Of a stretch of DNA of 64,000 nt, positions 1,909 through 12,425 are shown piece after piece. Numbering within the stretch: position 1 is the first letter of the stretch; each line of letters begins with the position of its first letter. Source of the DNA: an uncultured Gammaproteobacteria bacterium (lineage in GTDB: Bacteria > Patescibacteriota > Microgenomatia > Levybacterales > GWA1-39-11); the NCBI GenBank assembly GCA_964409875.1, contig CAYPEN010000005.1, positions 11,569-75,568 of the forward strand. The letters run 5' to 3'. A program made the translations under genes and the position numbers. The notes beneath the pieces were generated by a model. It was not told where the DNA came from, did not search any database, and worked only from the letters and a program-made list of their open reading frames with translations.

Positions 1909-2487
1909 ATGCGCAAATCAGGCTCCCTCAAACACTTTCTGCCGGACCTCAGCGAGAGGGAAGCGGATGCCATTCGAATCACAGCCAACCCGGCGGACCT
2001 GGTCGAGCTGGTCGGAAGCCTTCGCAGCAAGGGCGTGCCCACCGAAAAGCTGGCGCGCGCCCGCAGCTGCAAGCCGTACGAAATCCGGCATCTGATGCGC
2101 CTGCAAGCCCGTTTGTCAGATCCATGCAAGGAATTCCTGCGGAAAGGCCGCATCTCCCTCGGCCACGCCCGCGCCTTGGCATCCCTGCCCAAAACCGAGC
2201 AAGTCGGGCTGGCCTATGAGTGCATCGACGCCCAATGGTCGGTACGCGCGCTGGAAAGCCGCATACGAGGCGATCAGCACGACGATCACCCCACCGCCAA
2301 ACCCACTGAATGGGCTGCGCATTACGAACGCATTGCTCAGGTTGCAGGTGACCAGCTCGGGTATCCCTGCCGCTTTCAGCTCGACAAGGGCAACGAGCGC
2401 GCGGGGGAGCTATCGCTGCGTTTCACCAGCCTTGCCGAGCTGGATGGCATTTTGCGACGCCTGCGCATTCGCCTCGACGACGATTAG
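1909..2487 (+). CDS. ParB/KorB-type HTH domain protein (lacks an obvious N-terminal ParB nuclease domain)
   Basis: 192 aa. The segment TEKLARARSCKPYEIRHLMRLQARL...ISLGHARALASLPKTEQ matches the conserved ParB HTH/'GHARAL' region. Confidence 0.4.
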   Translation: MRKSGSLKHFLPDLSEREADAIRITANPADLVELVGSLRSKGVPTEKLARARSCKPYEIRHLMRLQARLSDPCKEFLRKGRISLGHARALASLPKTEQVGLAYECIDAQWSVRALESRIRGDQHDDHPTAKPTEWAAHYERIAQVAGDQLGYPCRFQLDKGNERAGELSLRFTSLAELDGILRRLRIRLDDD

Positions 2488-4136: not shown

Positions 4137-4400
4137 CTCGAACTTGTTCATCATGTTGAACTTTCTGCTAGTTAGGTGGGTGGGTGTCTGGAGGGAAGTC
4201 GAAGCGTGCAAAGCGCTCCGGCCGCGAACAAATCCGCTCGGCTTCCTTGCCTCGCTTGTGCCAATTCATGTCGAGCAACGTGGCCGGCCCGGCGAAGCAA
4301 AAGGCGTCCAGCCTTCTGCTTCGCCGGGCTCACCGCTTCAGTGCAATCGTCGTCCACTCTTCAGGCTGATCTCGCAGAAGTTCAACATGTTGAACTTTTA
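4137..4400. promoter_or_regulatory. Palindrome-rich region between mobC and parB1: candidate oriT and/or parS centromere
   Basis: Perfect 16-bp palindrome GTTCAACATGTTGAAC at 4380-4395 and a near-copy GTTCATCATGTTGAAC at 4146-4161 in inverted context (gcagaaaGTTCAAC... / gcagaaGTTCAAC...). A third half-site (catgttgaac) overlaps the mobC start at 4049-4058. Confidence 0.45.
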
Positions 4401-5405
4401 CCCCTCACCTTCCACGATCGCCTGAATGGCCACGGCCAGCAACGGCACTTCCAACGTCTCGCCGCTCGATAGCACTCGGATCCACCCTCGCCCGTATCGC
4501 GCCCGCCTTTGCAGCTCCAAATACGCGAGCTGGCCTTCGTAGGTCACTTCCAAGAGTGGTCTTCTAAGTTGGTCATCGGTTGTGCCAGCTGCCACAGTCG
4601 GAGTCACCGCGCTGCTGCCGTCAGCATTCCTGAGGGTTTCATCCAGAAGCGCAGTTTTTTGCTTCGCTGCGCCTTCCTCACCGGCAGCAATTGGCCCCTT
4701 CTGCCGTGGCAAAAGCTCCCTTTCTTGACCGACTTTTTCTTCCAGCGCGGCAACATCACGGCGAGCAATTGGCGCACCACGCTTACACAAGTTCTCAACC
4801 TCAACCGGCGCCTTCTTACTCAGCTGAATCAGGCTGTAAAGCGTCGCTACCTCGGTACACAGACCTGCCGCATAGACCTCCGCTATGTAGTCAGGCCATG
4901 ACAGCAGCGCACCGTGCATGGAAATGTAAGATTTCGATTTCCCCAATCGCTCGGCAATGAATTTGTCCTTGTCGCCGGCGCCCCTTCGCTTCTCAATGAA
5001 GCGGGCAATTTCCAAGGCGGTGAGATTGTTCCGCTGGATGTTCTCGACAACTTGCGCGAAATCGTCATGGCTGTCGTCGATAAACCCCGGAATCGTTGCC
5101 TTTCCGGCAAGAATACTGGCCCGGTAGCGCCGCGCACCGTGGTTGATCGTGTACTTCCCGCGCGCGTTCTTCGGTTTCACGGAAATGGGCACGCGCACTT
5201 TGTCGGCCTTGATCGACTCGGCTAACTCCCGCAAGGCATCTTCATCGAACGTCTGGCGCGGCTGATCAGGATCCTCCTCGATCGCGCCGAGACTGAACTC
5301 CATAGGTGCCCCAGTGGCCGCCGGAACTACCTGGGGTGCCCCAGCTTTCAGCAAATCTGAAAAGCCACTTTCCAAGGCAGATAAATCAAGCTCTGATCCG
5401 TTCAC
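4398..5405 (-). CDS. parB: ParB/KorB-family partition protein
   Basis: 335 aa. ParB-box-like motif (INHGARRYRAS), HTH (LTALEIARFI) and ...KSYISMHGALL. 4-nt overlap with the upstream parA. Confidence 0.8.
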   Translation of the reverse strand: MNGSELDLSALESGFSDLLKAGAPQVVPAATGAPMEFSLGAIEEDPDQPRQTFDEDALRELAESIKADKVRVPISVKPKNARGKYTINHGARRYRASILAGKATIPGFIDDSHDDFAQVVENIQRNNLTALEIARFIEKRRGAGDKDKFIAERLGKSKSYISMHGALLSWPDYIAEVYAAGLCTEVATLYSLIQLSKKAPVEVENLCKRGAPIARRDVAALEEKVGQERELLPRQKGPIAAGEEGAAKQKTALLDETLRNADGSSAVTPTVAAGTTDDQLRRPLLEVTYEGQLAYLELQRRARYGRGWIRVLSSGETLEVPLLAVAIQAIVEGEG

Positions 5406-6157
5406 GCTGCTTCTCCCATCCGTTGAAAAATCAGATCAATGGCCGCCTTAAACTCGGTGCCAGCCTCTCTCGCTGCCGTCTTTTTCAACTTCCACACGGG
5501 TATTCCAGCGGCCAGGGCTTCGGGGATACCCGAACGTATCCCAATCTTCGCCGGAATCATGTACTGCGCAAATTGCTTCAGTAATTGGGCGAGCGCAGCC
5601 TTTTGTCGCACGCTGTTAGGGTTGAATTTGTTCGGCAACATGCCCAGGAAATTGAGGTTTGCGTTGTATTTCTGCTTCACGCCAATAATGGTTTTCAGCA
5701 GCTTCTCAATGCCGTCGAGACTGTATTCCTCAAGCTCAATCGGTGCCAGAACGTGATCAGTCACGATGAACGCCGCGGTCATTCGCAGGCCCATTGTGGG
5801 CGGTGTATCGATAATGCAGATATCGAAGGCAGCTTTGTCCAGGTTCTGTAACTGACCGGCGAAAACCCCAATCACCCTGTTTTCCGCACGCTCGATATCG
5901 ACCATCTTTGCATCTGCCGCGATCAGCGTAATTCCGTCTTTGCCGCCCAGAATCACAGGCGCTGCCTCGAAGAGCTGGCTGGCAACGATCCCGCTGGAAT
6001 GCACCCCGAGAGTTTTGCTGCTGTTCCCCTGCGGGTCGATATCGATGTACAGGACGCGCTTGCCCGTTTCGACAAAACGGTAAGCCAGATGCACCCCGAT
6101 GGTGGTCTTCCCTACCCCGCCTTTTTGGTTCGCTATCACTAGCTTTTTCATGGCCAA
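5402..6157 (-). CDS. parA: ParA/IncC-family partition ATPase
   Basis: 251 aa. Deviant Walker A KGGVGKTT directly after the N-terminus, plus DIDPQGN. Confidence 0.85.
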   Translation of the reverse strand: MAMKKLVIANQKGGVGKTTIGVHLAYRFVETGKRVLYIDIDPQGNSSKTLGVHSSGIVASQLFEAAPVILGGKDGITLIAADAKMVDIERAENRVIGVFAGQLQNLDKAAFDICIIDTPPTMGLRMTAAFIVTDHVLAPIELEEYSLDGIEKLLKTIIGVKQKYNANLNFLGMLPNKFNPNSVRQKAALAQLLKQFAQYMIPAKIGIRSGIPEALAAGIPVWKLKKTAAREAGTEFKAAIDLIFQRMGEAA

Positions 6158-6339
6158 CGCCCCTGTTGTGGTGCCAACTCCGGTGGTAATCCCTAATTTC
6201 TAAGCTATTTGATTTGCTAGTCAGATGTAGCTGCTGCCATTAACAAGTTAACAATTCTGTTAGTGGTATTAAGTTATCTAGAGTTAGGAAGTTAAACCGT
6301 TACGGGTTCGCAAGTCCTTGAATTGATGGCTCCGATTGA

Positions 6340-6715
6340 CCCACTTGGTGGGTAAAAGCACGAGGATCGGTGGGCAATCCGCCGATAGCGGGTGGCCAAA
6401 CGACCGAAACTGCGTGGGTGAAACCACGTTAGCCTGGTGGGCAATAACACGTGGCGAACGTGTTTAAAAACACGGCGTAATTCATGCACTTATCCACAAC
6501 GTTCCGAGCTTTCCTCCACAGCCAGCAATGGCGTGGGCAATAGCACGAAGTGACGGCCACGATCATGCGTGGCTCAGACAGATCAAAATTCAGTGTTTTT
6601 AACCCTCCGAAGAGCAGATTCCGACCGCAGAATCCTATCGACATCGGGAACACGGGCGTGAGCAGAGTCAACGAGTGGGTAAAACCACGAAATAGCGTGG
6701 GCAAAAACACGATAT
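6340..6715. repeat. oriV: eight ~16-bp iterons (consensus GYGGGYAAAANCACG) at 21-23-bp spacing, with DnaA box and AT-rich tract
   Basis: Iterons at 6347, 6369, 6390, 6413, 6436 (tandem, 21-23-bp phasing), 6532, 6674 and 6696. Sits directly downstream of the rep gene. Confidence 0.75.
6490..6498 (+). promoter_or_regulatory. Consensus DnaA box TTATCCACA inside the iteron origin
   Basis: Exact 9-mer TTATCCACA. Lies next to the AT-rich near-palindrome GTGTTTAAAAACAC (6461-6474), between the iteron blocks. Confidence 0.55.
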
Positions 6716-6717
6716 TT

Positions 6718-7608
6718 CTAGACCATAATTTTAAGCAGATATTCTTTGAGTTTTCCGTCGGGATCGTACTCGACCACGAGTTTCTCGGGGATACCCGATT
6801 TACCCTTGGGCTGGTAATCCAACGCGTATTCGGGCACTGGCTGGGTGGCAGCCATTTTCTTCAGCGTGCGCCGGAACTCGCGCAGCTCGCCGCGAGTGCC
6901 GAACTTGTCGTACAGCTTCTCAACGCTGATCTCCCAGATGGGCTGTCGACCACAGTGCTTGCGGCAGATTTCATACATGCGCCGCTCATTGGGTGAGCTC
7001 AGCTGAAAGTAATCGCGGGAATAGGTCAGTAGCCGCCGGTCGGAGATGGCGTTGTAGAGCCGCTCAGCAATGGTGACTTCGATGCTGGTCATACGACCGT
7101 TGGCCATATTGACCTCGGCATCGTCGATCAGTCCGAACACCACGCCGCGCTGATTCAGCTCGCCGTTGGCGCTCACATTGCTTTTGAACGTGGTGCCGCG
7201 CAGCCGCGCCAGGGTGTCGTGGATGCGCCGGTACTCGCGGCCCGATGTATCGCGGCCGGTGGCCGTCATGTAGTCGTAAGCGTTCAGCCGCACCCGCCGC
7301 CCCGTCTTGCGGCCACGGTTCATCGCTTCGGCCAGCTGTGAAATGCAGTAGATCAGCAAGTCTTTATCAAAGATGGTCGCCCGCCCGGCTGAGGATGGCA
7401 GGATTTCTATCCAGGCCCCGCTGACCGGGTTCTCGTAGCGAAAGGTCTCGGTGTCCGGATGCTTGGACAGAGCGAAGATGGGATATTCCATCGAGGTGAG
7501 GTCAGACTTCGGTGAAACGTCGATCAGCTCGGCGACGAACAGATCCAGCTGATCGGGAGCGCTGATAGCCGCCTCCCCTACCGTCTCCAGCAATTTTCCT
7601 TTTGCCAT
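6718..7608 (-). CDS. repA: Plasmid replication initiator protein (RepA / 'replication initiator protein A'-like)
   Basis: 296 aa. N-terminal DLFVAELIDVSPKSDLTSMEYPIFALSK is typical of RPA-type plasmid initiators. Gene abuts the iteron array. Confidence 0.65.
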   Translation of the reverse strand: MAKGKLLETVGEAAISAPDQLDLFVAELIDVSPKSDLTSMEYPIFALSKHPDTETFRYENPVSGAWIEILPSSAGRATIFDKDLLIYCISQLAEAMNRGRKTGRRVRLNAYDYMTATGRDTSGREYRRIHDTLARLRGTTFKSNVSANGELNQRGVVFGLIDDAEVNMANGRMTSIEVTIAERLYNAISDRRLLTYSRDYFQLSSPNERRMYEICRKHCGRQPIWEISVEKLYDKFGTRGELREFRRTLKKMAATQPVPEYALDYQPKGKSGIPEKLVVEYDPDGKLKEYLLKIMV

Positions 7609-8016
7609 CTAGGTGCTCCCGGTGTCCCCCAGGGGGACAGGTCTGATGAATTGCCGCCCGGCCGCTGCCAGTACGGCCTGGGTGATCGCTGTGCGCACGA
7701 TCGAACTGCGATCGATGATGCGCTCCGCCGACGTTAGCTGCTCGGCCAGCGCATTGATCTGAGCGACCAGCTGCGAGTCCATCGCCAACGGCAACGTGAC
7801 GGTCTTGCCGTCATAGAACTCTTCGCGCACCAAGTCTTCGCAGTCCGGATGGGCAAGCAGTGCTTCGCACGCATTGGCTATCCAGTTGCTGCGGCGCTTC
7901 AGTGACCATTCCTGCGCCACCATCGCCTGCTCCAGTGCGTCTTTCATACCGGCGGGCAGCCGAATGCTGGACCGAACCAGCGTTGCTCTCGGTGGCGGCG
8001 TGAACTTCTTAACCAT
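7609..8016 (-). CDS. Hypothetical small protein translationally coupled to rep (possible regulator)
   Basis: 135 aa. Its stop TAG is immediately followed by the rep ATG, and it overlaps parB2 by 8 nt. The TGTCCCCCAGGGGGACA palindrome sits in its last codons. Confidence 0.4.
   Translation of the reverse strand: MVKKFTPPPRATLVRSSIRLPAGMKDALEQAMVAQEWSLKRRSNWIANACEALLAHPDCEDLVREEFYDGKTVTLPLAMDSQLVAQINALAEQLTSAERIIDRSSIVRTAITQAVLAAAGRQFIRPVPLGDTGST
7613..7629. promoter_or_regulatory. Operator/parS-like palindrome TGTCCCCCAGGGGGACA (copy 1, 11 bp upstream of rep start)
   Basis: Perfect 17-bp palindrome. One of three copies of the same motif in the backbone. Confidence 0.5.
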
Positions 8017-9067
8017 CGACCTTCAACTCATCGATACGCGCCAGCAATACCTCGAAAGCGCGGTTCAGATCTTTCTGCCGGCTCAGGTCGAGCCCATCGA
8101 GCTCGGCGGTCAGGGCTTCGTCGTCTAGCTTCTCGGCGGCGGCCTTGATCAAGTAGGAAACCGCCCGGTAGTCCTTGGCCCGACCGACCCGCAGTGACGA
8201 CCCGGCACCCTGCGCGCTCTTGCTGACAGGTTTTTGCGGACCCAGCAGCTCTTTGATTTCGGCCACAGACAGCACCGCGATTTGGGCGGCGCGCTTGATA
8301 TTAGTTACCTGCCCCGCTTCAATCGCTTCGATCAACAGCGGCGAGGGGCAACGAATCACCGCCAGGTAGCGTTGGGCCACCGAGCGCGGCAGGCCGGACA
8401 ACGTCGCGAACTGGTTGACGCTGATCGCCTGCACACCCTTCCCGCTCTTCCAGGCCTCCATCAGCTGCCGCAGGTTGTCGATCTTCTCGAACAGCGACAA
8501 GTCGTCGCGATGGATATTCTCTTCCCACTGCAGCAGGTATTTTTCCAGCGCTGACGGCGCGGCCTCGCGAATGCGTGCGTCGATCATTGGCTCGCCCAAC
8601 AGCAGGTGCGCGAGCAACCGCCGTTCGCCGGCAATCAGATTGAACTGGGAGTCGTTCTGCCAGACCACGATCGGATGCAGTAACCGGTCGGCGCTTTTCA
8701 GTGCGAAGGCAAAGGCCGCAATTGATTGCAGATCCCCTACTGCCTTCCCGGAGAGTCCGCCATCGGCCTCGATCTGCTCAAGGTATTCGTCAAGGTAGGC
8801 GTCGTCGTCGCGGTTGAGCCGCTCGCGATCGATGGGAAAGCGCTGCGCCAGCGCGCCGATGTCGTCGGCGCTAAGTGCGAGCTTGCGTGGATTCAGCGCG
8901 TCTTCACGGATGTATTTCACCGGAATCCGCTTGACGTTGAGCGCCACCACTCCGCCCGCGGCCTTGATCTGCTCGGCGGCGCTCGTGGTCCAGCGCAGAG
9001 AACTTGATGCCGACTCGTCCACAGTGCCGGTACCGGCGCGTTTGGCGCCAAATTTCTTCACAGCCAT
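8009..9067 (-). CDS. parB: ParB/KorB-family protein (second partition/regulatory ParB)
   Basis: 352 aa. ParB box LIAGERRLLA followed by an HTH region. Confidence 0.75.
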   Translation of the reverse strand: MAVKKFGAKRAGTGTVDESASSSLRWTTSAAEQIKAAGGVVALNVKRIPVKYIREDALNPRKLALSADDIGALAQRFPIDRERLNRDDDAYLDEYLEQIEADGGLSGKAVGDLQSIAAFAFALKSADRLLHPIVVWQNDSQFNLIAGERRLLAHLLLGEPMIDARIREAAPSALEKYLLQWEENIHRDDLSLFEKIDNLRQLMEAWKSGKGVQAISVNQFATLSGLPRSVAQRYLAVIRCPSPLLIEAIEAGQVTNIKRAAQIAVLSVAEIKELLGPQKPVSKSAQGAGSSLRVGRAKDYRAVSYLIKAAAEKLDDEALTAELDGLDLSRQKDLNRAFEVLLARIDELKVDG

Positions 9068-9081
9068 TGGAATCCTCGCAG

Positions 9082-9102
9082 GGTGTCCCCCTGGGGGACA
9101 CC
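9082..9102. promoter_or_regulatory. Operator/parS-like palindrome GGTGTCCCCCTGGGGGACACC (copy 2, 15 bp upstream of parB2 start)
   Basis: Perfect 21-bp palindrome. Confidence 0.5.
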
Positions 9103-9182
9103 GGTTGAATCAGAGTCAGTTATGGGAGACACCAGTGCGATTGCGCGACTCCACGCAGAGAGCTCGAACGATCGTCGCTTAT

Positions 9183-10133
9183 TCATTGTGCGGCACGCCG
9201 CGCGCCTTCCAGAGGCACGACGCGCACCTTGCCGAAAATGCGCCCCAGCACAAACGCCCCGACCTTTTCAGCGGCAATGCGAGCGGCATGACTGGCTGGA
9301 ATCGCAAAAATTGACCGCGGGCTGATGCCCTTCAGGTCGCGCTCCGGGAACGCCGTCGACTGCGGCAGATAGGTGTCATCGGGCAGCATGATGTCGCTGA
9401 GCTGTTCCTGCAGCATGGTCAATGTGCCGCGATGCAGATTGGTGTTGGTGCGAACCTTGTTCGCACACAGCCCGACCAGCGCCAGCGCACTTCCACTGGG
9501 GCGCGAGAAGTTTTCCGACTGGATCGCCTGCAGCATCGCATTGATACCTTGTAGGCTCTTTTCCTCGGGTTCGAATGGAATGATCGCGTGCGTCGCCGCC
9601 CGAACCGCGGCTCGGAAAATCGGGTTTCGGCTGGGGCCGGTATCGAGAATGATCAGGTCATAAGTCTCAGCCACATCCGGCATGTGCAGGAACTCGCCGA
9701 GCCGGTTGATGATCTGCGAAGCGATTTTGCCGCTGGCATTGTCGAATTCGGTATTGATGGATTCGAGCAGAGCAGGGTGGCCGACCATGATGTCGACCGA
9801 GTGCTCAAAGCCATTTTCAGGGCAGATATAGGTTTTATGCGGTAACACGGCCTTGCCGTAGAAGATATCGGCGATCGAACTGCGTTCGGCAAGGTCCGGA
9901 TCGTTTTCGTAATCGGGGTGGCGGGGCGGAACCTGGCCGCCGGTGGCGGTTGGATCGGATTCCATGCCGATCCAGTAGTCGCTGGAGTTGCACTGCATAT
10001 CCAGGTCCACCACCAGAACATTCTTGCCGCCATGAATGGCAGCGTATTCGGCAATGACCGCAGCCAGCGTGGTTTTACCCACACCACCTTTCTGGTTCAG
10101 CACCGCGAGCACCTTGGAATGGTAGTGGAACAT
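9183..10133 (-). CDS. parA: ParA/IncC-family ATPase (second partition system)
   Basis: 316 aa. Walker A KGGVGKTT, then DLDMQCN. Confidence 0.8.
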   Translation of the reverse strand: MFHYHSKVLAVLNQKGGVGKTTLAAVIAEYAAIHGGKNVLVVDLDMQCNSSDYWIGMESDPTATGGQVPPRHPDYENDPDLAERSSIADIFYGKAVLPHKTYICPENGFEHSVDIMVGHPALLESINTEFDNASGKIASQIINRLGEFLHMPDVAETYDLIILDTGPSRNPIFRAAVRAATHAIIPFEPEEKSLQGINAMLQAIQSENFSRPSGSALALVGLCANKVRTNTNLHRGTLTMLQEQLSDIMLPDDTYLPQSTAFPERDLKGISPRSIFAIPASHAARIAAEKVGAFVLGRIFGKVRVVPLEGARRAAQ

Positions 10134-10255
10134 CCTGTACGCCCCTTTGTATACGCGGAATGTACGCGGACAATAACGCGCAGCTAATCACACGTCAACA
10201 ATAACATACGTGCTTTAGCGTCGGAGCCGGACAGAGAGGCAGTCAGCGAATTGGT

Positions 10256-10272
10256 ATCCCCCAGGGGGACAT
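10256..10272. promoter_or_regulatory. Operator-like palindrome ATCCCCCAGGGGGACAT (copy 3, upstream of parA2)
   Basis: Same core TCCCCCWGGGGGA as copies 1 and 2, with imperfect outer positions. Confidence 0.4.
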
Positions 10273-10325
10273 GCCAGCGCGAGTCGCGGATGCTGAAATG
10301 GCGGAGGAGGGCGCGTGGGCAAAGC

Positions 10326-10646
10326 CTAGTCACCCTTCCCGTAACGTTCCTTTGCGTCTTGCTCCATGCGTTTAACTATTGGAACCAGCTCATTGGGCAG
10401 GCAGACTTCAAACCGTTCCCATCCTTCAGGCGGTAGTAAACCGTTCTCCAGATGTGAAGCCCACACGCGCGCGACCATATTACTTATGCCCATCGCCGTG
10501 CGCTTGCCCTCTTCAATGAAGTCCTTCTGCTTGCAGCCATCCACCAGCACTGCTCGCGCAATGGCGACGTTCTCATCAGTCATAGCGCGTCGAATCCGGC
10601 TCACGGCCAGATCGAACTCACTCGTCGTAAGTTTCTTGGGCGCCAT
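10326..10646 (-). CDS. korA: KorA/TrfB-like plasmid transcriptional repressor
   Basis: 106 aa. Aligns by eye to RK2 KorA (LT.S.F..A..., IARGVLVDG, V.RVWA, LP.G, LP, E.DAK). Sits upstream of a parA-parB (incC-korB-like) pair, as in IncP-type control regions. Confidence 0.55.
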   Translation of the reverse strand: MAPKKLTTSEFDLAVSRIRRAMTDENVAIARAVLVDGCKQKDFIEEGKRTAMGISNMVARVWASHLENGLLPPEGWERFEVCLPNELVPIVKRMEQDAKERYGKGD

Positions 10647-10961
10647 ACCTGATAACTCCCATCAGAGTAAGTGGATATATAAAGATACTAATCCTTTAAA
10701 TATACCATTGCTGAGCCGTTTGGGTCTTTGCGGGTTAAACATCCGTTGATCGGGAGGAGCTATCTGAGAAAAAGACACTCAGGTTAATCTTGCAACCAAC
10801 TAAGGACAGTTGCCCGACCCCCAGGGCTGGGCGGCTTCCCAAGCAATCTGAGAGGCTGCAGAAATGGAATACAGCAACGAATCTTCCGCATTAACGGCTT
10901 AAGGCCAAGATCAATCGACACGTCGCCTTTGGATTTAAATGCGGACATGTCTGCATATTAA

Positions 10962-11282
10962 TTGGCGCTTTGCCCAGAGGGGCGCGATATGTTCGTTGTG
11001 ATTTTTCGAGCCAAAGTGCGGAGCGTTGATCAAGAGTATCCGGAAATTGCTGCGCGCTTACGTGATTTGGCCTTGGGCCAATTTGGGTGTCTAGAGTTTC
11101 ATTCGGTAACAGAGGGCCGAAATGAAGTTGCTCTCTCATATTGGGCTAGTGAAGAAAATATCCGCGCTTGGAAATCACATCCCGAACATATCGCGGCCCA
11201 ATCTCGCGGAAAGGAAATTTGGTATGAGTCATATTCTGTGCAAATTGTCAATATCACTCGCGAGTACGGCGCCAGCACCTAA
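10962..11282 (+). CDS. Antibiotic-biosynthesis-monooxygenase (ABM) domain protein
   Basis: ~100 aa. ABM-like pattern (FVVIFRAK...LEFHSV...ALSYWASEENIRAWKSHPEH). Lies in the low-GC island; the true start is possibly Met 10989. Confidence 0.5.
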   Translation: MALCPEGRDMFVVIFRAKVRSVDQEYPEIAARLRDLALGQFGCLEFHSVTEGRNEVALSYWASEENIRAWKSHPEHIAAQSRGKEIWYESYSVQIVNITREYGAST

Positions 11283-11318: not shown

Positions 11319-12425
11319 TTGTTCCCTCCGCAGCATTCCGGATGTCCGCTCAGTTTTGCGTTATATTTCGCTATGTCGGAGCAATGCATGAAGCTGGAGA
11401 CATTTGAAGATGTGCTTTCTTCTATTCGGAAGAATCCGAGGCGACAGTTTCATTTGCTTCTTGGGAATGGCTTTAGCGTTGCATACGATCCGGCAATTTT
11501 CTCATATAACGCATTGCACGATTTCGTCAAGAACGTCAATGATGGGGATCTTTCAAAGATCCTCGAAGTTATTGAGACGCGAAATTTTGAAGTGATAATG
11601 CAGTATTTGGACAACTTCGCGGCCTTGATAAATGCGTTCGGTGGTGAACCGAAGCTGAAGAAGCGGGTAGAGGCTGCAAGCGCCAAGCTGAAAAAAAGCC
11701 TGCTGGACGCCGTCAAGGCTATGCATCCAGAGCATGTCTTCAAAGTCCCGGAAGACCAAAGTATGGCGTGCGCCGCTTTTCTACAGAAATTCTTGGGTAC
11801 TACAGGAAGCATTTTTTCTACGAACTACGATTTGCTGTTGTATTGGGTTTTGATGCGAAACGGTATCGTGGATCACGTAGATGGCTGCGGCAGGGAGCTT
11901 GAGAATGATACAGGCGAGTATATGGCGCCAGAAGATCAGGAATGGTCTGAACTAATTTGGGGAATAAACCGCAATAAGCAAAATGTTTTCTATCTGCATG
12001 GGGCTCTTCCGTTTTTCGATAGTGGAGTTTCGGTAGTTAAGGAGGAGTACGATGTTTATAACTATCTGCTCGAAAATATCAGCGCAAGAATGGAGAACGG
12101 GGAGTATCCGATTTTCGTAACTGCTGGTGATGGCACGCAGAAACTAAACCACATTACTCATAATCAATATCTAACTTATTGCTACGACAATTTCTGTCAA
12201 ATGGAAGGCTCACTCGTTACCTATGGTTTCAGTTTCGGTCAGTACGATGAGCACATCATTGCCGCTATCAATAAAGCTGCAAAACAAAAGATTCCAAATA
12301 AGCTCTGGAGCATATACATCGGTGTCTACTCCCCTGAAGACAAAAAGCATATAGAACAAATTAAAGGAAAGTTTGCATGCAAAGTTCATGTCTTCGATGC
12401 GAAGACGGCAAACGTCTGGCGCTAG
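11319..12425 (+). CDS. SIR2-like (SIR2_2/DUF4917-type) putative NADase, candidate defence effector
   Basis: Motifs in SIR2_2 order: LLGNGFSVAYD (GAGxS-like), STNYDLLL (TTNYD) and YLHGALPFF (LHG, catalytic His). GC is ~45% against a ~59% backbone. Likely real start at Met 11373 or 11391. Confidence 0.5.
   Translation: MFPPQHSGCPLSFALYFAMSEQCMKLETFEDVLSSIRKNPRRQFHLLLGNGFSVAYDPAIFSYNALHDFVKNVNDGDLSKILEVIETRNFEVIMQYLDNFAALINAFGGEPKLKKRVEAASAKLKKSLLDAVKAMHPEHVFKVPEDQSMACAAFLQKFLGTTGSIFSTNYDLLLYWVLMRNGIVDHVDGCGRELENDTGEYMAPEDQEWSELIWGINRNKQNVFYLHGALPFFDSGVSVVKEEYDVYNYLLENISARMENGEYPIFVTAGDGTQKLNHITHNQYLTYCYDNFCQMEGSLVTYGFSFGQYDEHIIAAINKAAKQKIPNKLWSIYIGVYSPEDKKHIEQIKGKFACKVHVFDAKTANVWR

What the first reader, a model, noticed from the sequence alone, without database searches (positions are those of the whole stretch)
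7613..10272. Three copies of a 17-21-bp palindrome TGTCCCCCWGGGGGACA at the rep, parB2 and parA2 promoters: a global operator / centromere motif
Perfect palindromes sit at 7613-7629 (11 bp before the rep ATG, inside the last codons of the coupled 135-aa ORF) and at 9082-9102 (15 bp before parB2). A core-identical copy at 10256-10272 sits in the parA2 upstream region. All lie in the korA-parA2-parB2-orf135-rep control region, analogous to the IncP korA-incC-korB regulon. The sequence differs from the IncP OA/OB operators. It could be the binding site of the KorA-like repressor, of the KorB-like ParB2 (doubling as parS), or of the 135-aa protein. A half-site (gcgtgtcccccgcc) also occurs at ~1825 upstream of the 1909 ParB-HTH gene.
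Basis: seen in the sequence. Interest (0 to 1): 0.55.

Follow-up and report, generated by a model that had tools for sequence, protein, structure and literature searches.

The report
Conserved parS-like sites of plasmid ParB
The three GC-rich palindromes are real, conserved protein-binding sites, most likely the centromere and operator sites of the plasmid's own ParB-type segregation protein; this is an ordinary kind of element, but it belongs to a plasmid family nobody has studied.

Summary
TGTCCCCCWGGGGGACA occurs at 7623-7639 and 9084-9100 (both perfect) and at 10255-10271 (one mismatch). These are the only copies in 64 kb, and 0 of 100 shuffles reach three.

All three lie on a minus-strand module, parA2-parB2-orf135-rep (RPA family). 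The module is conserved in more than 45 non-identical environmental loci. In those loci a related palindrome, TGTCYCC-N3-GGRGACA, occupies the same three slots: upstream of parA2, about 30 bp before parB2, and in the last codons of orf135 before rep.

The arm sequence changed in three lineages. Each time, ParB2 changed within residues 226-229, at the turn and start of its helix-turn-helix recognition helix. Residue 227 is the only one of 1,042 tested alignment columns that separates the three operator classes.

The KorA-like gene is absent from nearly all loci that carry the motif, so it is not the binder. Orf135 is a TraY-like tandem ribbon-helix-helix protein and remains a weaker rival.

Best reading: these are the parS sites of a new ParB subfamily, with the parA2-proximal copy probably also acting as an autoregulatory operator. 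The "global regulon" reading is not supported. This is a new member of a known kind, of moderate-to-low interest.

The parts
7623..7639 (.). Palindrome copy 3 (rep-proximal): TGTCCCCCAGGGGGACA, perfect. It lies inside the last codons of orf135, 14 nt before the rep ATG.
   Evidence: The slot is conserved at +1400 to +1435 from the parB2 start in 28 of 43 loci. The site is inside the orf135 reading frame in 32 of 33 cases, and in two different frames.
9082..9102 (.). Palindrome copy 2 (parB2-proximal): perfect 21-bp GGTGTCCCCCTGGGGGACACC (17-mer core 9084-9100), in the parA2-parB2 spacer. It is the best-conserved slot and the probable primary parS.
   Evidence: The slot is occupied in 41 of 44 loci. 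Flanks are unconserved while the palindrome is conserved. Some relatives carry 2-3 tandem copies here.
10255..10271 (.). Palindrome copy 1 (upstream of parA2): TATCCCCCAGGGGGACA, with one mismatch in the outer TGT. It lies 56 bp upstream of the predicted -35.
   Evidence: The slot is occupied in 28 of 40 loci. The same outer-position defect recurs at this slot in L045, L047, L049 and L055.
8009..9067 (-). parB2: a 352-aa ParB-CTPase-fold protein and the proposed reader of the palindrome. Features: conserved basic N-terminal peptide, NPRK, GERR and EENxxR motifs, helix-turn-helix 217-238, C-terminal helical domain.
   Evidence: 4UMK Spo0J-parS, E = 1.7e-11; AF2 model, pLDDT 78; Foldseek: ParB, Noc and KorB structures. 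Covariation at residues 226-229.
9183..10133 (-). parA2: a 316-aa Walker-type ParA ATPase with the P-loop at the N terminus and no N-terminal DNA-binding domain.
   Evidence: It is 58-78% identical across all related loci.
7609..8016 (-). orf135: a single-chain tandem ribbon-helix-helix protein (beta-alpha-alpha twice), overlapping the parB2 stop and abutting the rep ATG. It is the rival candidate binder. Its C-terminal tail is encoded by palindrome copy 3.
   Evidence: AF2 model, pLDDT 80, pTM 0.71. (best PDB matches are F-plasmid relaxosome chains, which I take from memory to be TraY, and VirC2). (JGI name: CopG/Arc/MetJ family). No Pfam hit.
6718..7608 (-). rep: a 296-aa replication initiator of the RPA family (PF10134).
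   Evidence: E = 2.1e-73. It is conserved downstream of orf135 in all loci long enough to show it.
10170..10209 (-). Predicted parA2 promoter block GTATGTTATTG-TTGACG-17 nt-TATTGT, nearly invariant in the 10 closest relatives.
   Evidence: the only sigma-70-like hit in 6000-11000; alignments.

Best explanation
The three palindromes are the parS-type binding sites of ParB2, the ParB-CTPase-fold protein encoded between them.

Proposed mechanism (inferred by homology):
- A ParB2 dimer reads the two 7-bp arms (TGTCCCC / GGGGACA) with its helix-turn-helix motifs. The central 3 bp act as a largely free spacer.
- The sites nucleate a partition complex. With the ParA2 ATPase, this complex segregates the RPA-type replicon.
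- ParB2 has all the CTP-pocket motifs, so it probably closes into a clamp at these sites and spreads over the 2.6-kb parA2-parB2-orf135-rep-oriV region.
- The copy upstream of the conserved parA2 promoter probably also serves as an autoregulatory operator. In the window's clade it lies 36-79 bp upstream of the -35. In the Cellvibrio-type clade it abuts the -35. These correspond to the KorB 'distal' and 'proximal' arrangements.

What is shown: the sites exist; their position is conserved; the arm sequences are under DNA-level selection; ParB2 has a ParB fold and motifs; operator class covaries with ParB2 residues 226-229.

What is inferred: direct binding, CTP-dependent clamping, partition activity and repression.
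For: 1. The motif is non-random: three copies against 0.08 expected, and it is the only recurrent palindrome in 64 kb.

2. The four-gene module is conserved in all fetched relatives, with ParB2 identity from 36% to 83%. The pattern GT[CT][CTA]CC-N3-GG[GAT][AG]AC occupies the parB2 slot in 41 of 44 loci, the parA2 slot in 28 of 40 and the rep slot in 28 of 43. Only 8 hits occur in the other 357 kb.

3. Selection acts on the DNA:
- Flanks diverge while the palindrome stays.
- The rep-proximal copy is read in two different frames in different clades.
- The arms are sequence-constrained, with only a few variants. The central 3 nt are free in the large GTCTCC clade; in the window's clade the outer two spacer positions are mostly C and G. 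The flanking T and A are conserved.

4. The operator changed in three lineages: GTCCCC to GTCTCC in L046, GTCTCC to GTTACC in L022/L023, and a relaxed seventh arm position in L052. Each lineage carries lineage-specific ParB2 substitutions within residues 226-229, with a chance probability of about 0.009.

5. Residue 227 is the only one of 1,042 columns in ParA2, ParB2, Orf135 and RPA that separates the three classes: A/P, G/S and N.

6. In the AF2 model, residues 225-227 form the turn and 228-238 the recognition helix. The profile alignment to Noc (7OL9) places G225-L226-P227-R228 on the G-K-S/G-R/Q motif. In Caulobacter ParB the equivalent residues G170, K171, S172 and R173 contact parS, and R173 sets specificity (PMC7383237).

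7. ParB2 has NPRK, GERR and EENxxR motifs and a conserved basic N-terminal peptide. It matches ParB, Noc and KorB structures.

8. Two deeper lineages fit the same pattern. L056 has GGTGTCCCGCAGCGGGACACC at -45 and +1406. L057 has a 16-bp TGTTCCCCGGGGAACA at -45 and just after parB2. Its outer TGTT...AACA matches the canonical parS as I recall it.

9. The other module proteins have other plausible targets: iteron-like repeats for RPA and a conserved GTATGTTAT-type promoter block that could suit Orf135.
Against: - No binding was or could be tested here.
- The covariation rests on three switch events, and the 226-229 window was chosen after seeing the data.
- Residue 227 is P or A in the window's clade. 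These are not base-reading side chains, so the effect may be indirect, through backbone or helix positioning.
- R228, the equivalent of the parS-reading R173, is not conserved across clades, although the outer TGT is.
- Orf135 also shows lineage-specific changes next to its second beta strand in two of the three switch lineages: K71T in L046 and T/A74S in L052.
- Two of the three sites sit 14-16 nt before start codons. That placement is not explained by a pure centromere role, and may only reflect where a 17-bp palindrome is tolerated.
- No promoter is predicted near copies 2 and 3.
Confidence: 0.65

Rival explanations
1. The palindromes are operators of Orf135, the tandem ribbon-helix-helix protein. 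Like omega of pSM19035 or CopG/CopB (recalled from memory), it would repress the parA2, parB2 and rep genes, with one Orf135 pseudo-dimer on each arm. ParB2 would use some other, unidentified parS.
For: - Orf135 is a confident tandem RHH fold, with its best PDB matches to F-plasmid relaxosome chains and VirC2.
- It is as conserved a member of the module as ParB2.
- It is translationally coupled to rep.
- RHH repressors encoded just before rep are a known arrangement (abstract of PMC5717011, listed).
- The sites precede three genes, as omega sites do (recalled from memory).
- L046 and L052 carry lineage-specific changes next to or in beta strand 2: K71T and T/A74S.
Against: - No Orf135 column separates the operator classes.
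- The largest operator switch (CT to TA in L022/L023) occurs with no change in either beta strand.
- Beta-strand residues vary widely within one operator class (RSSIR, RTTLR, RMAVR) and are identical across classes.
- A single-chain RHH has two different strands, so it would not by itself favour a perfectly symmetric site.
- ParB2 would be left without a parS. No other recurrent palindrome exists in the window.
- A separate conserved promoter element (GTATGTTAT-type repeats) is available as an Orf135 target.
Confidence: 0.2
2. The palindromes are operators of the KorA-like repressor encoded upstream (10326-10646), as in the IncP-1 korA-incC-korB regulon.
For: The gene matches PF16509 KORA and lies directly upstream of copy 1.
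Against: - A KorA homologue is detected only in the window and in L046, out of more than 45 loci that keep the motif. In L046 it lies about 3 kb away, across other genes.
- It co-occurs with the separate ParA1/KorB-like pair, not with ParB2.
- In relatives the gene upstream of parA2 is instead a short ParB-HTH protein, an unknown 121-aa ORF, or nothing.
Confidence: 0.03
3. The palindromes act as RNA or DNA hairpins, for example mRNA-stabilising, processing, attenuating or translation-modulating stem-loops just before the parB2 and rep ribosome-binding sites. On this reading they are not protein operators.
For: Copies 2 and 3 lie 14-16 nt upstream of start codons within the transcript, and can form a 7-9-bp GC stem with a 3-nt loop.
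Against: - Local folding is not more stable than shuffled sequence (z = +1.2, -0.4 and -0.3).
- No T-run follows any copy.
- The arm sequence itself is conserved across proteins only 36-83% identical, with a few concerted variants per locus, rather than drifting with compensatory pairs.
- Imperfect copies break pairing in ways that G-U wobble cannot rescue.
- Copy 1 lies upstream of the predicted promoter, so it would not be transcribed with the operon.
Confidence: 0.04
4. The binder is another protein: the short ParB-HTH protein (window 1909-2487, adjacent to parA2 in many relatives), the RPA initiator, or a host factor.
For: - The short ParB-HTH gene sits directly upstream of parA2 in L045, L049, L053 and L054, and divergently in L051 and L052. 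In the co-directional loci the parA2-proximal palindrome lies between the two genes.
- A half-site lies upstream of the window's copy of this gene.
Against: - The recognition region of the short ParB-HTH protein is hypervariable among relatives that share an identical operator.
- That gene is missing near the module in many loci.
- The half-site is at chance level.
- RPA has its own iteron-like repeats downstream of rep, and no RPA column tracks operator class.
Confidence: 0.06

Closest known systems
Chromosomal and plasmid ParABS systems with CTP-dependent ParB clamps and 16-bp palindromic parS (TGTTNCACGTGAAACA, recalled from memory)
   Same: - A Walker ParA sits next to a ParB with GERR and ENxxR CTP-pocket motifs, a helix-turn-helix and a C-terminal dimerisation domain.
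- Short perfect palindromes sit next to the par genes and keep the outer TGT...ACA. One lineage (L057) even has a 16-bp TGTT....AACA site.
- The specificity-linked residues fall on the GKSR-equivalent patch.
   Different: - The site is 17 bp, with 7-bp GC-rich arms and a central spacer that is free in most relatives.
- ParB2 falls below the Pfam ParB_N threshold (23.2 bits against a cut-off of 26.3). It is at most 22-33% identical to any ParB on a catalogued plasmid.
- The three sites are spread through the operon, partly inside coding sequence.
- A tandem-RHH gene and the rep gene are fused into the same module.
IncP-1 (RK2) KorB / OB / KorA system
   Same: - A ParB-family protein whose palindromic sites serve as centromere and lie upstream of promoters.
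- OB sites lie 4-10 bp (proximal) or 45 to more than 1,000 bp (distal) upstream of target promoters (PMC11790492). Here the parA2 site abuts the -35 in one clade and lies 36-79 bp upstream in the window's clade.
- A small second DNA-binding protein is encoded in the module.
   Different: - ParB2 lacks the KorB (PF08535) and KorB_C domains. These are found instead on the plasmid's other ParB (4398-5405).
- The sequence is unrelated to OB.
- There are three local sites rather than a plasmid-wide set.
- KorA is not a conserved partner.
- The small partner candidate is an RHH protein, not a KorA-type HTH protein.
Omega (RHH) of pSM19035/inc18 and ParG/CopG-type RHH regulators (recalled from memory)
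   Same: A ribbon-helix-helix protein encoded in the par/rep region, with sites placed before the partition and replication genes, which would link copy-number control to partition.
   Different: - Those proteins bind arrays of short heptad or direct repeats, and they replace ParB. Here a full ParB is present and the site is a single symmetric 17-mer.
- Orf135 is a single-chain tandem RHH of the kind I recall for TraY and VirC2.
- Its beta strands do not track operator class.

Membership tests
ParABS partition system (ParB-CTPase with parS) | A Walker-type ParA ATPase encoded next to ParB | tested here: met
   parA2 (9183-10133) matches AAA_31/CbiA, E = 2.4e-25. It is adjacent to parB2 in every related locus.
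ParABS partition system (ParB-CTPase with parS) | ParB N-terminal CTP-binding fold with the GERR arginine patch and ENxxR motif | tested here: met
   G147-E148-R149-R150, E183-N184 and R187 are invariant, and N59-P60-R61 is conserved. The profile hits Spo0J and Noc structures. Foldseek hits CTP/CDP-bound ParB, Noc and KorB. The Pfam ParB_N score is below its cut-off (23.2 against 26.3).
ParABS partition system (ParB-CTPase with parS) | A helix-turn-helix DNA-binding domain followed by a dimerisation domain | tested here: met
   In the AF2 model, helices 217-224 and 228-238 form the HTH and helices 298-347 form the C-terminal domain. The HTH aligns to those of 4UMK and 7OL9.
ParABS partition system (ParB-CTPase with parS) | Cis-acting palindromic centromere site(s) close to the par genes | tested here: met
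   Three copies lie within the module, and their position is conserved in relatives.
ParABS partition system (ParB-CTPase with parS) | ParB binds the site specifically | tested here: inconclusive
   Only indirect evidence is available. Operator class covaries with ParB2 residues 226-229. Binding itself cannot be tested with these tools.
ParABS partition system (ParB-CTPase with parS) | CTP binding and hydrolysis, clamp loading, and plasmid stabilisation in cis | not testable with these tools
   This needs biochemistry and plasmid-stability assays.
IncP-1 KorA-IncC-KorB global regulon | A KorB-type ParB with KorB and KorB_C domains | tested here: not met
   ParB2 has no PF08535 or PF06613 hit. 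These domains are on the other ParB at 4398-5405. The two ParBs are only about 26% identical locally.
IncP-1 KorA-IncC-KorB global regulon | An OB-type operator distributed over many promoters of the plasmid (global control) | tested here: not met
   There are only three copies in 64 kb, all within 7623-10271. The window covers about 64 kb of a roughly 101-kb contig, so the remainder is unseen. L046 does carry two extra copies, inside its korB and nikA-like genes.
IncP-1 KorA-IncC-KorB global regulon | KorA as a conserved co-repressor partner | tested here: not met
   A KorA homologue is present only in the window and in L046.
RHH (omega/ParG/CopG-type) operator | An RHH protein encoded in the module | tested here: met
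   Orf135 is a tandem RHH by AF2 and by fold search.
RHH (omega/ParG/CopG-type) operator | Operator sequence tracks the DNA-facing beta-strand residues | tested here: not met
   No class-separating column exists in Orf135. The strands are unchanged across the CT-to-TA switch. Changes near strand 2 in L046 and L052 leave some doubt.

The most novel reading that the evidence does not exclude
The module may be a compact KorB-like silencing circuit built from different parts. ParB2-CTP clamps would load at three parS sites inside their own operon and slide to the parA2 promoter and towards rep and oriV. The tandem-RHH protein Orf135, bound to the conserved GTATGTTAT-type repeats at that promoter, would act as the clamp-arresting co-repressor, the role KorA and TrbA play for KorB. 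One set of sites would then couple partition, par autoregulation and Rep dosage.
Probability: 0.12. Interest if true: 0.6.

Novelty: new member of a known kind. Interest (0 to 1): 0.35.

Why it matters
It defines the centromere motif and its likely reader for an unstudied family of RPA-type replicons. The family is seen in environmental Gammaproteobacteria such as Cellvibrio, Colwellia and Pseudomaricurvus, and on this conjugative metal-resistance plasmid.

It has no close relative among catalogued plasmids. The best ParB match in PLSDB is 22-33% identical.

The natural operator variants (GTCCCC, GTCTCC, GTTACC, GTCCCG) pair with changes at ParB2 residues 226-229. This gives a small, directly testable case of ParB-parS co-evolution, and a source of mutually orthogonal ParB/parS pairs for DNA labelling or for plasmid incompatibility typing.

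It does not reveal a new kind of mechanism.

Tried and rejected
- **DNA searches of PLSDB.** The near search found nothing. The distant search found only short RPA-gene matches in alphaproteobacterial plasmids.
- **IMG/VR scan for relatives.** None found.
- **Single-sequence search of the HTH region against the PDB.** Only spurious matches to designed TIM barrels, so it was no use for residue mapping. The mapping rests on the profile alignments.
- **Intrinsic terminator or attenuator.** No T-run follows any copy, and the folds are no better than shuffles.
- **KorA as binder.** Rejected because the gene is absent from almost all motif-bearing loci.
- **The short ParB-HTH protein as binder.** Rejected because its recognition region is hypervariable among loci with an identical operator.
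- **The half-site at 1815.** Chance level.
- **A shared KorB-type palindrome in L046.** Searching for the window's AAGTTCAACATGTTGAACTT in the fetched loci found nothing.
- **The second family-wide palindrome, AACATACNGTATGTT.** Absent from the window.
- **Literature.** Searches for RPA/PF10134 together with ParB found no description of this module.
Full report
**1. The observation**

The motif TGTCCCCCWGGGGGACA, with up to 3 mismatches allowed, matches exactly three places in the 64-kb window:
- 7623-7639, perfect
- 9084-9100, perfect, and part of a perfect 21-bp palindrome at 9082-9102
- 10255-10271, one mismatch (TATCCCCC...)

Dinucleotide-preserving shuffles give a mean of 0.08 matches, and none of 100 reaches three. 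It is the only palindrome with arms of 7 nt or more that recurs in the window.

The "half-site" at 1815-1822 is a single 8-mer where 1.23 are expected by chance.

**2. Genes around the sites**

All genes lie on the minus strand:

| Gene | Coordinates | Size | Identification |
|---|---|---|---|
| KorA-like | 10326-10646 | 106 aa | PF16509 |
| ParA2 | 9183-10133 | 316 aa | Walker ATPase |
| ParB2 | 8009-9067 | 352 aa | ParB-like |
| Orf135 | 7609-8016 | 135 aa | no Pfam hit |
| Rep | 6718-7608 | 296 aa | RPA family, E = 2e-73 |

Downstream of rep come iteron-like repeats. After these come a second pair, ParA1 and a KorB-like ParB, and then NikA-like and MobP1 relaxase genes. Further on are type IV secretion genes and metal-efflux genes. 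The window is therefore part of a conjugative plasmid.

The 17-mers end 121 nt before the parA2 start, 16 nt before the parB2 start and 14 nt before the rep start. The last copy lies inside the final codons of orf135.

**3. Comparative evidence**

ParB2 has about 20 close relatives (67-83% identity) and many distant ones (36-47%) in metagenomes and in MAGs or isolates of Cellvibrio, Colwellia, Pseudomaricurvus and others. PLSDB holds nothing closer than 22-33% identity, and no near DNA match exists. An exhaustive profile search finds 109 cluster representatives at E < 1e-30.

I fetched 56 related loci.
- All loci long enough to show it keep parA2-parB2-orf135-rep in the same order.
- A KorA homologue is found only in the window and in L046. 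Both of these also carry the ParA1/KorB-like pair.

In 45 non-identical loci, a palindrome of the form GT[CT][CTA]CC-N3-GG[GAT][AG]AC occupies the same three slots:

| Slot | Loci occupied |
|---|---|
| 0-120 nt before parB2 | 41 of 44 |
| Before parA2 | 28 of 40 |
| About 1.4 kb downstream of the parB2 start, before rep | 28 of 43 |
| Elsewhere | 8 hits in 357 kb |

Further points from the comparison:
- Flanking T and A are conserved, so the unit is TGTCYCC-N3-GGRGACA. The three central bases are free in the large GTCTCC clade. In the window's clade the outer two spacer positions are mostly C and G, which extends the palindrome.
- In alignments of the close relatives the flanks are scrambled while the palindrome is intact.
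- The rep-proximal copy lies within the orf135 reading frame in 32 of 33 cases, but in two different frames in different clades. The conserved object is the DNA, not the peptide.
- In several relatives the parB2-proximal copy lies inside the 3' end of parA2.
- Some loci carry two or three tandem copies before parB2. That looks like a centromere array.

**4. Which protein reads the site**

Candidates encoded in the conserved module are ParB2 (helix-turn-helix), Orf135 and RPA.

*ParB2.*
- It has a disordered but conserved basic N-terminal peptide, and the NPRK, GERR and EENxxR motifs.
- Its AF2 model has pLDDT 78, with helix-turn-helix helices 217-224 and 228-238.
- It matches CTP/CDP-bound ParB, Noc and KorB structures.
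- Its profile hits the Spo0J-parS complex 4UMK at E = 1.7e-11.

*Orf135.* It folds as beta-alpha-alpha twice, a single-chain tandem ribbon-helix-helix (pLDDT 80). Its best PDB matches are F-plasmid relaxosome chains and VirC2. From memory, those relaxosome chains are TraY.

*Operator classes.* The arms come in three main classes:
- GTCCCC, in the window's clade
- GTCTCC, in most loci, including L046, whose ParB2 is 77% identical to the window's
- GTTACC, in L022 and L023, which nest among GTCTCC loci

*Covariation.*
- Across 1,042 alignment columns of ParA2, ParB2, Orf135 and RPA, exactly one column separates the three classes. It is ParB2 residue 227, which is A/P, G/S and N respectively.
- L052 has a relaxed arm, TGTCCC followed by G, T or C. 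Its ParB2 carries a unique L/M226Q change.
- Each of the three switch lineages has lineage-specific substitutions within residues 226-229. The chance probability is about 0.009, but the window was chosen after seeing the data.

*Where these residues sit.*
- Residues 225-227 form the turn, and 228 starts the recognition helix.
- In the profile alignment to Noc (7OL9), G225-L226-P227-R228 falls on the G-K-G-Q motif, the counterpart of G-K-S-R in ParB.
- In Caulobacter ParB, G170, K171, S172 and R173 contact parS, and R173 sets specificity (PMC7383237).

*Two deeper lineages fit.*
- L056 (ParB2 with GMKRSV) has GGTGTCCCGCAGCGGGACACC at -45 and +1406.
- L057 (GLPRVT) has a 16-bp TGTTCCCCGGGGAACA at -45 and just after parB2. 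Its outer TGTT...AACA matches the canonical parS as I recall it.

- No column separates the classes.
- Its beta strands are unchanged across the CT-to-TA switch.
- The strands vary freely within one class.
- However, K71T in L046 and T/A74S in L052 lie next to or in strand 2, so Orf135 is not excluded.

*Other candidates.*
- The short ParB-HTH protein (window 1909-2487) is adjacent to parA2 in many relatives. Its recognition region is hypervariable among loci that share the same operator.
- RPA has its own iteron-like repeats.

**5. Centromere, operator or both**

- The close relatives share a nearly invariant block, GTATGTTATTG-TTGACG-17 nt-TATTGT, before parA2. In the window the -35 is at 10198-10193 and the -10 at 10175-10170.
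- In this clade the palindrome lies 36-79 bp upstream of the -35, at a variable distance. The window's value is 56 bp.
- In the Cellvibrio-type clade the palindrome abuts a TTGCCC-16 nt-TATATT promoter.
- This mirrors the "proximal" (4-10 bp) and "distal" (45 to more than 1,000 bp) OB positions described for KorB (PMC11790492).
- The parA2-proximal copy is recurrently imperfect in its outer TGT, in the window and in L045, L047, L049 and L055. That would suit a weaker, tunable operator.
- No promoter is predicted near copies 2 and 3. Their placement at gene boundaries may simply reflect where a 17-bp palindrome is tolerated.

**6. RNA-hairpin alternative**

- Folding energies are no better than those of shuffles.
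- No T-run follows any copy.
- The arm sequences are conserved rather than drifting with compensatory pairs.
- Copy 1 lies upstream of the promoter.

**7. Verdict**

The palindromes are a genuine, family-wide cis-element. They are most probably the parS sites of ParB2 (confidence about 0.65), with an added autoregulatory role at PparA2.

The main rival is the tandem-RHH Orf135 (about 0.2). KorA is essentially excluded.

The IncP korA-incC-korB analogy holds only loosely:
- ParB2 is not a KorB-type protein.
- The sites are local rather than global.
- KorA is not a conserved partner.

This is a new member of a known kind. Its interest lies mainly in the natural specificity switches and in defining the centromere of an uncatalogued plasmid family.

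Noticed in passing
window 6340-6710 (minus strand, between the rep stop and the ParA1 start): There are four copies of an iteron-like unit, TTGCCCAC. Three of them are followed about 22 nt later by TT(T/C)ACCCAC. There is also a palindrome CGTGTTTAAAAACACG at 6459-6474. This is the probable oriV of the RPA replicon, and it is distinct from the ParB2 palindrome.
   Followed up: partly
window 10170-10209; L002-L034 upstream of parA2 and about 2.4 kb downstream of the parB2 start: A second conserved cis-element overlaps the parA2 promoter: GTATGTTATTG-TTGACG-17 nt-TATTGT in the window's clade, and GTATATTAT/GTATGTTAT repeats in the Cellvibrio-type loci. The same half-site forms a palindrome, AACATACNGTATGTT, downstream of rep in distant loci, but that palindrome is absent from the window. 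It may be the target of Orf135 or RPA.
   Followed up: partly
window 7609-8016 (-): Orf135 has no Pfam hit, yet it models confidently as a single-chain tandem ribbon-helix-helix. Its best PDB matches are F-plasmid relaxosome chains (which I take from memory to be TraY) and VirC2. It is wedged between parB2 and rep, with overlapping or abutting stop and start codons.
   Followed up: partly
window 4146-4161, 4378-4397 and 4287-4329: A perfect 20-bp palindrome, AAGTTCAACATGTTGAACTT, lies immediately after the KorB-like gene, with a one-mismatch copy 232 bp away. Between them is a hairpin with 19-nt arms. These are candidates for the KorB-like operator/centromere and oriT of the second par/mob module.
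   Followed up: partly
window 1909-2487 (+); L045, L049, L051-L054 upstream of parA2: A 178-192-aa protein consists only of a ParB HTH domain plus a ParB C-terminal dimerisation domain, with no CTPase domain. It sits next to parA2 in many close relatives but is relocated about 7 kb away in the window. Its recognition region is hypervariable and its role is unknown.
   Followed up: partly
L046 9098-9114 and 10131-10147: This relative (ParB2 77% identical to the window's) carries two extra copies of its own operator variant, TGTCTCCCCGGGAGA(C/T)A. They lie inside the korB-like and nikA-like coding regions, so ParB2 sites can spread beyond the module in some plasmids.
   Followed up: no
L057 221-241 and 1308-1328: A deep-branching relative uses a 16-bp even palindrome, TGTTCCCCGGGGAACA. 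As I recall them, its outer bases match the canonical parS and its centre resembles the Noc-binding site. Its second copy lies between parB2 and the orf135 homologue rather than after it.
   Followed up: no
window 11319-12425 (+): A DUF4917-family protein (E = 2.5e-42), with a faint precomputed SIR2_2 hit in L001, lies next to the KorA-like gene. It may be a defence-related accessory gene.
   Followed up: no
window 10255-10271; the same slot in L045, L047, L049 and L055: The parA2-proximal copy is repeatedly imperfect at the same outer position (TGT to TAT, or its mirror ACA to ATA), while the parB2-proximal copy is usually perfect. This suggests a deliberately weaker site near the promoter.
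   Followed up: partly
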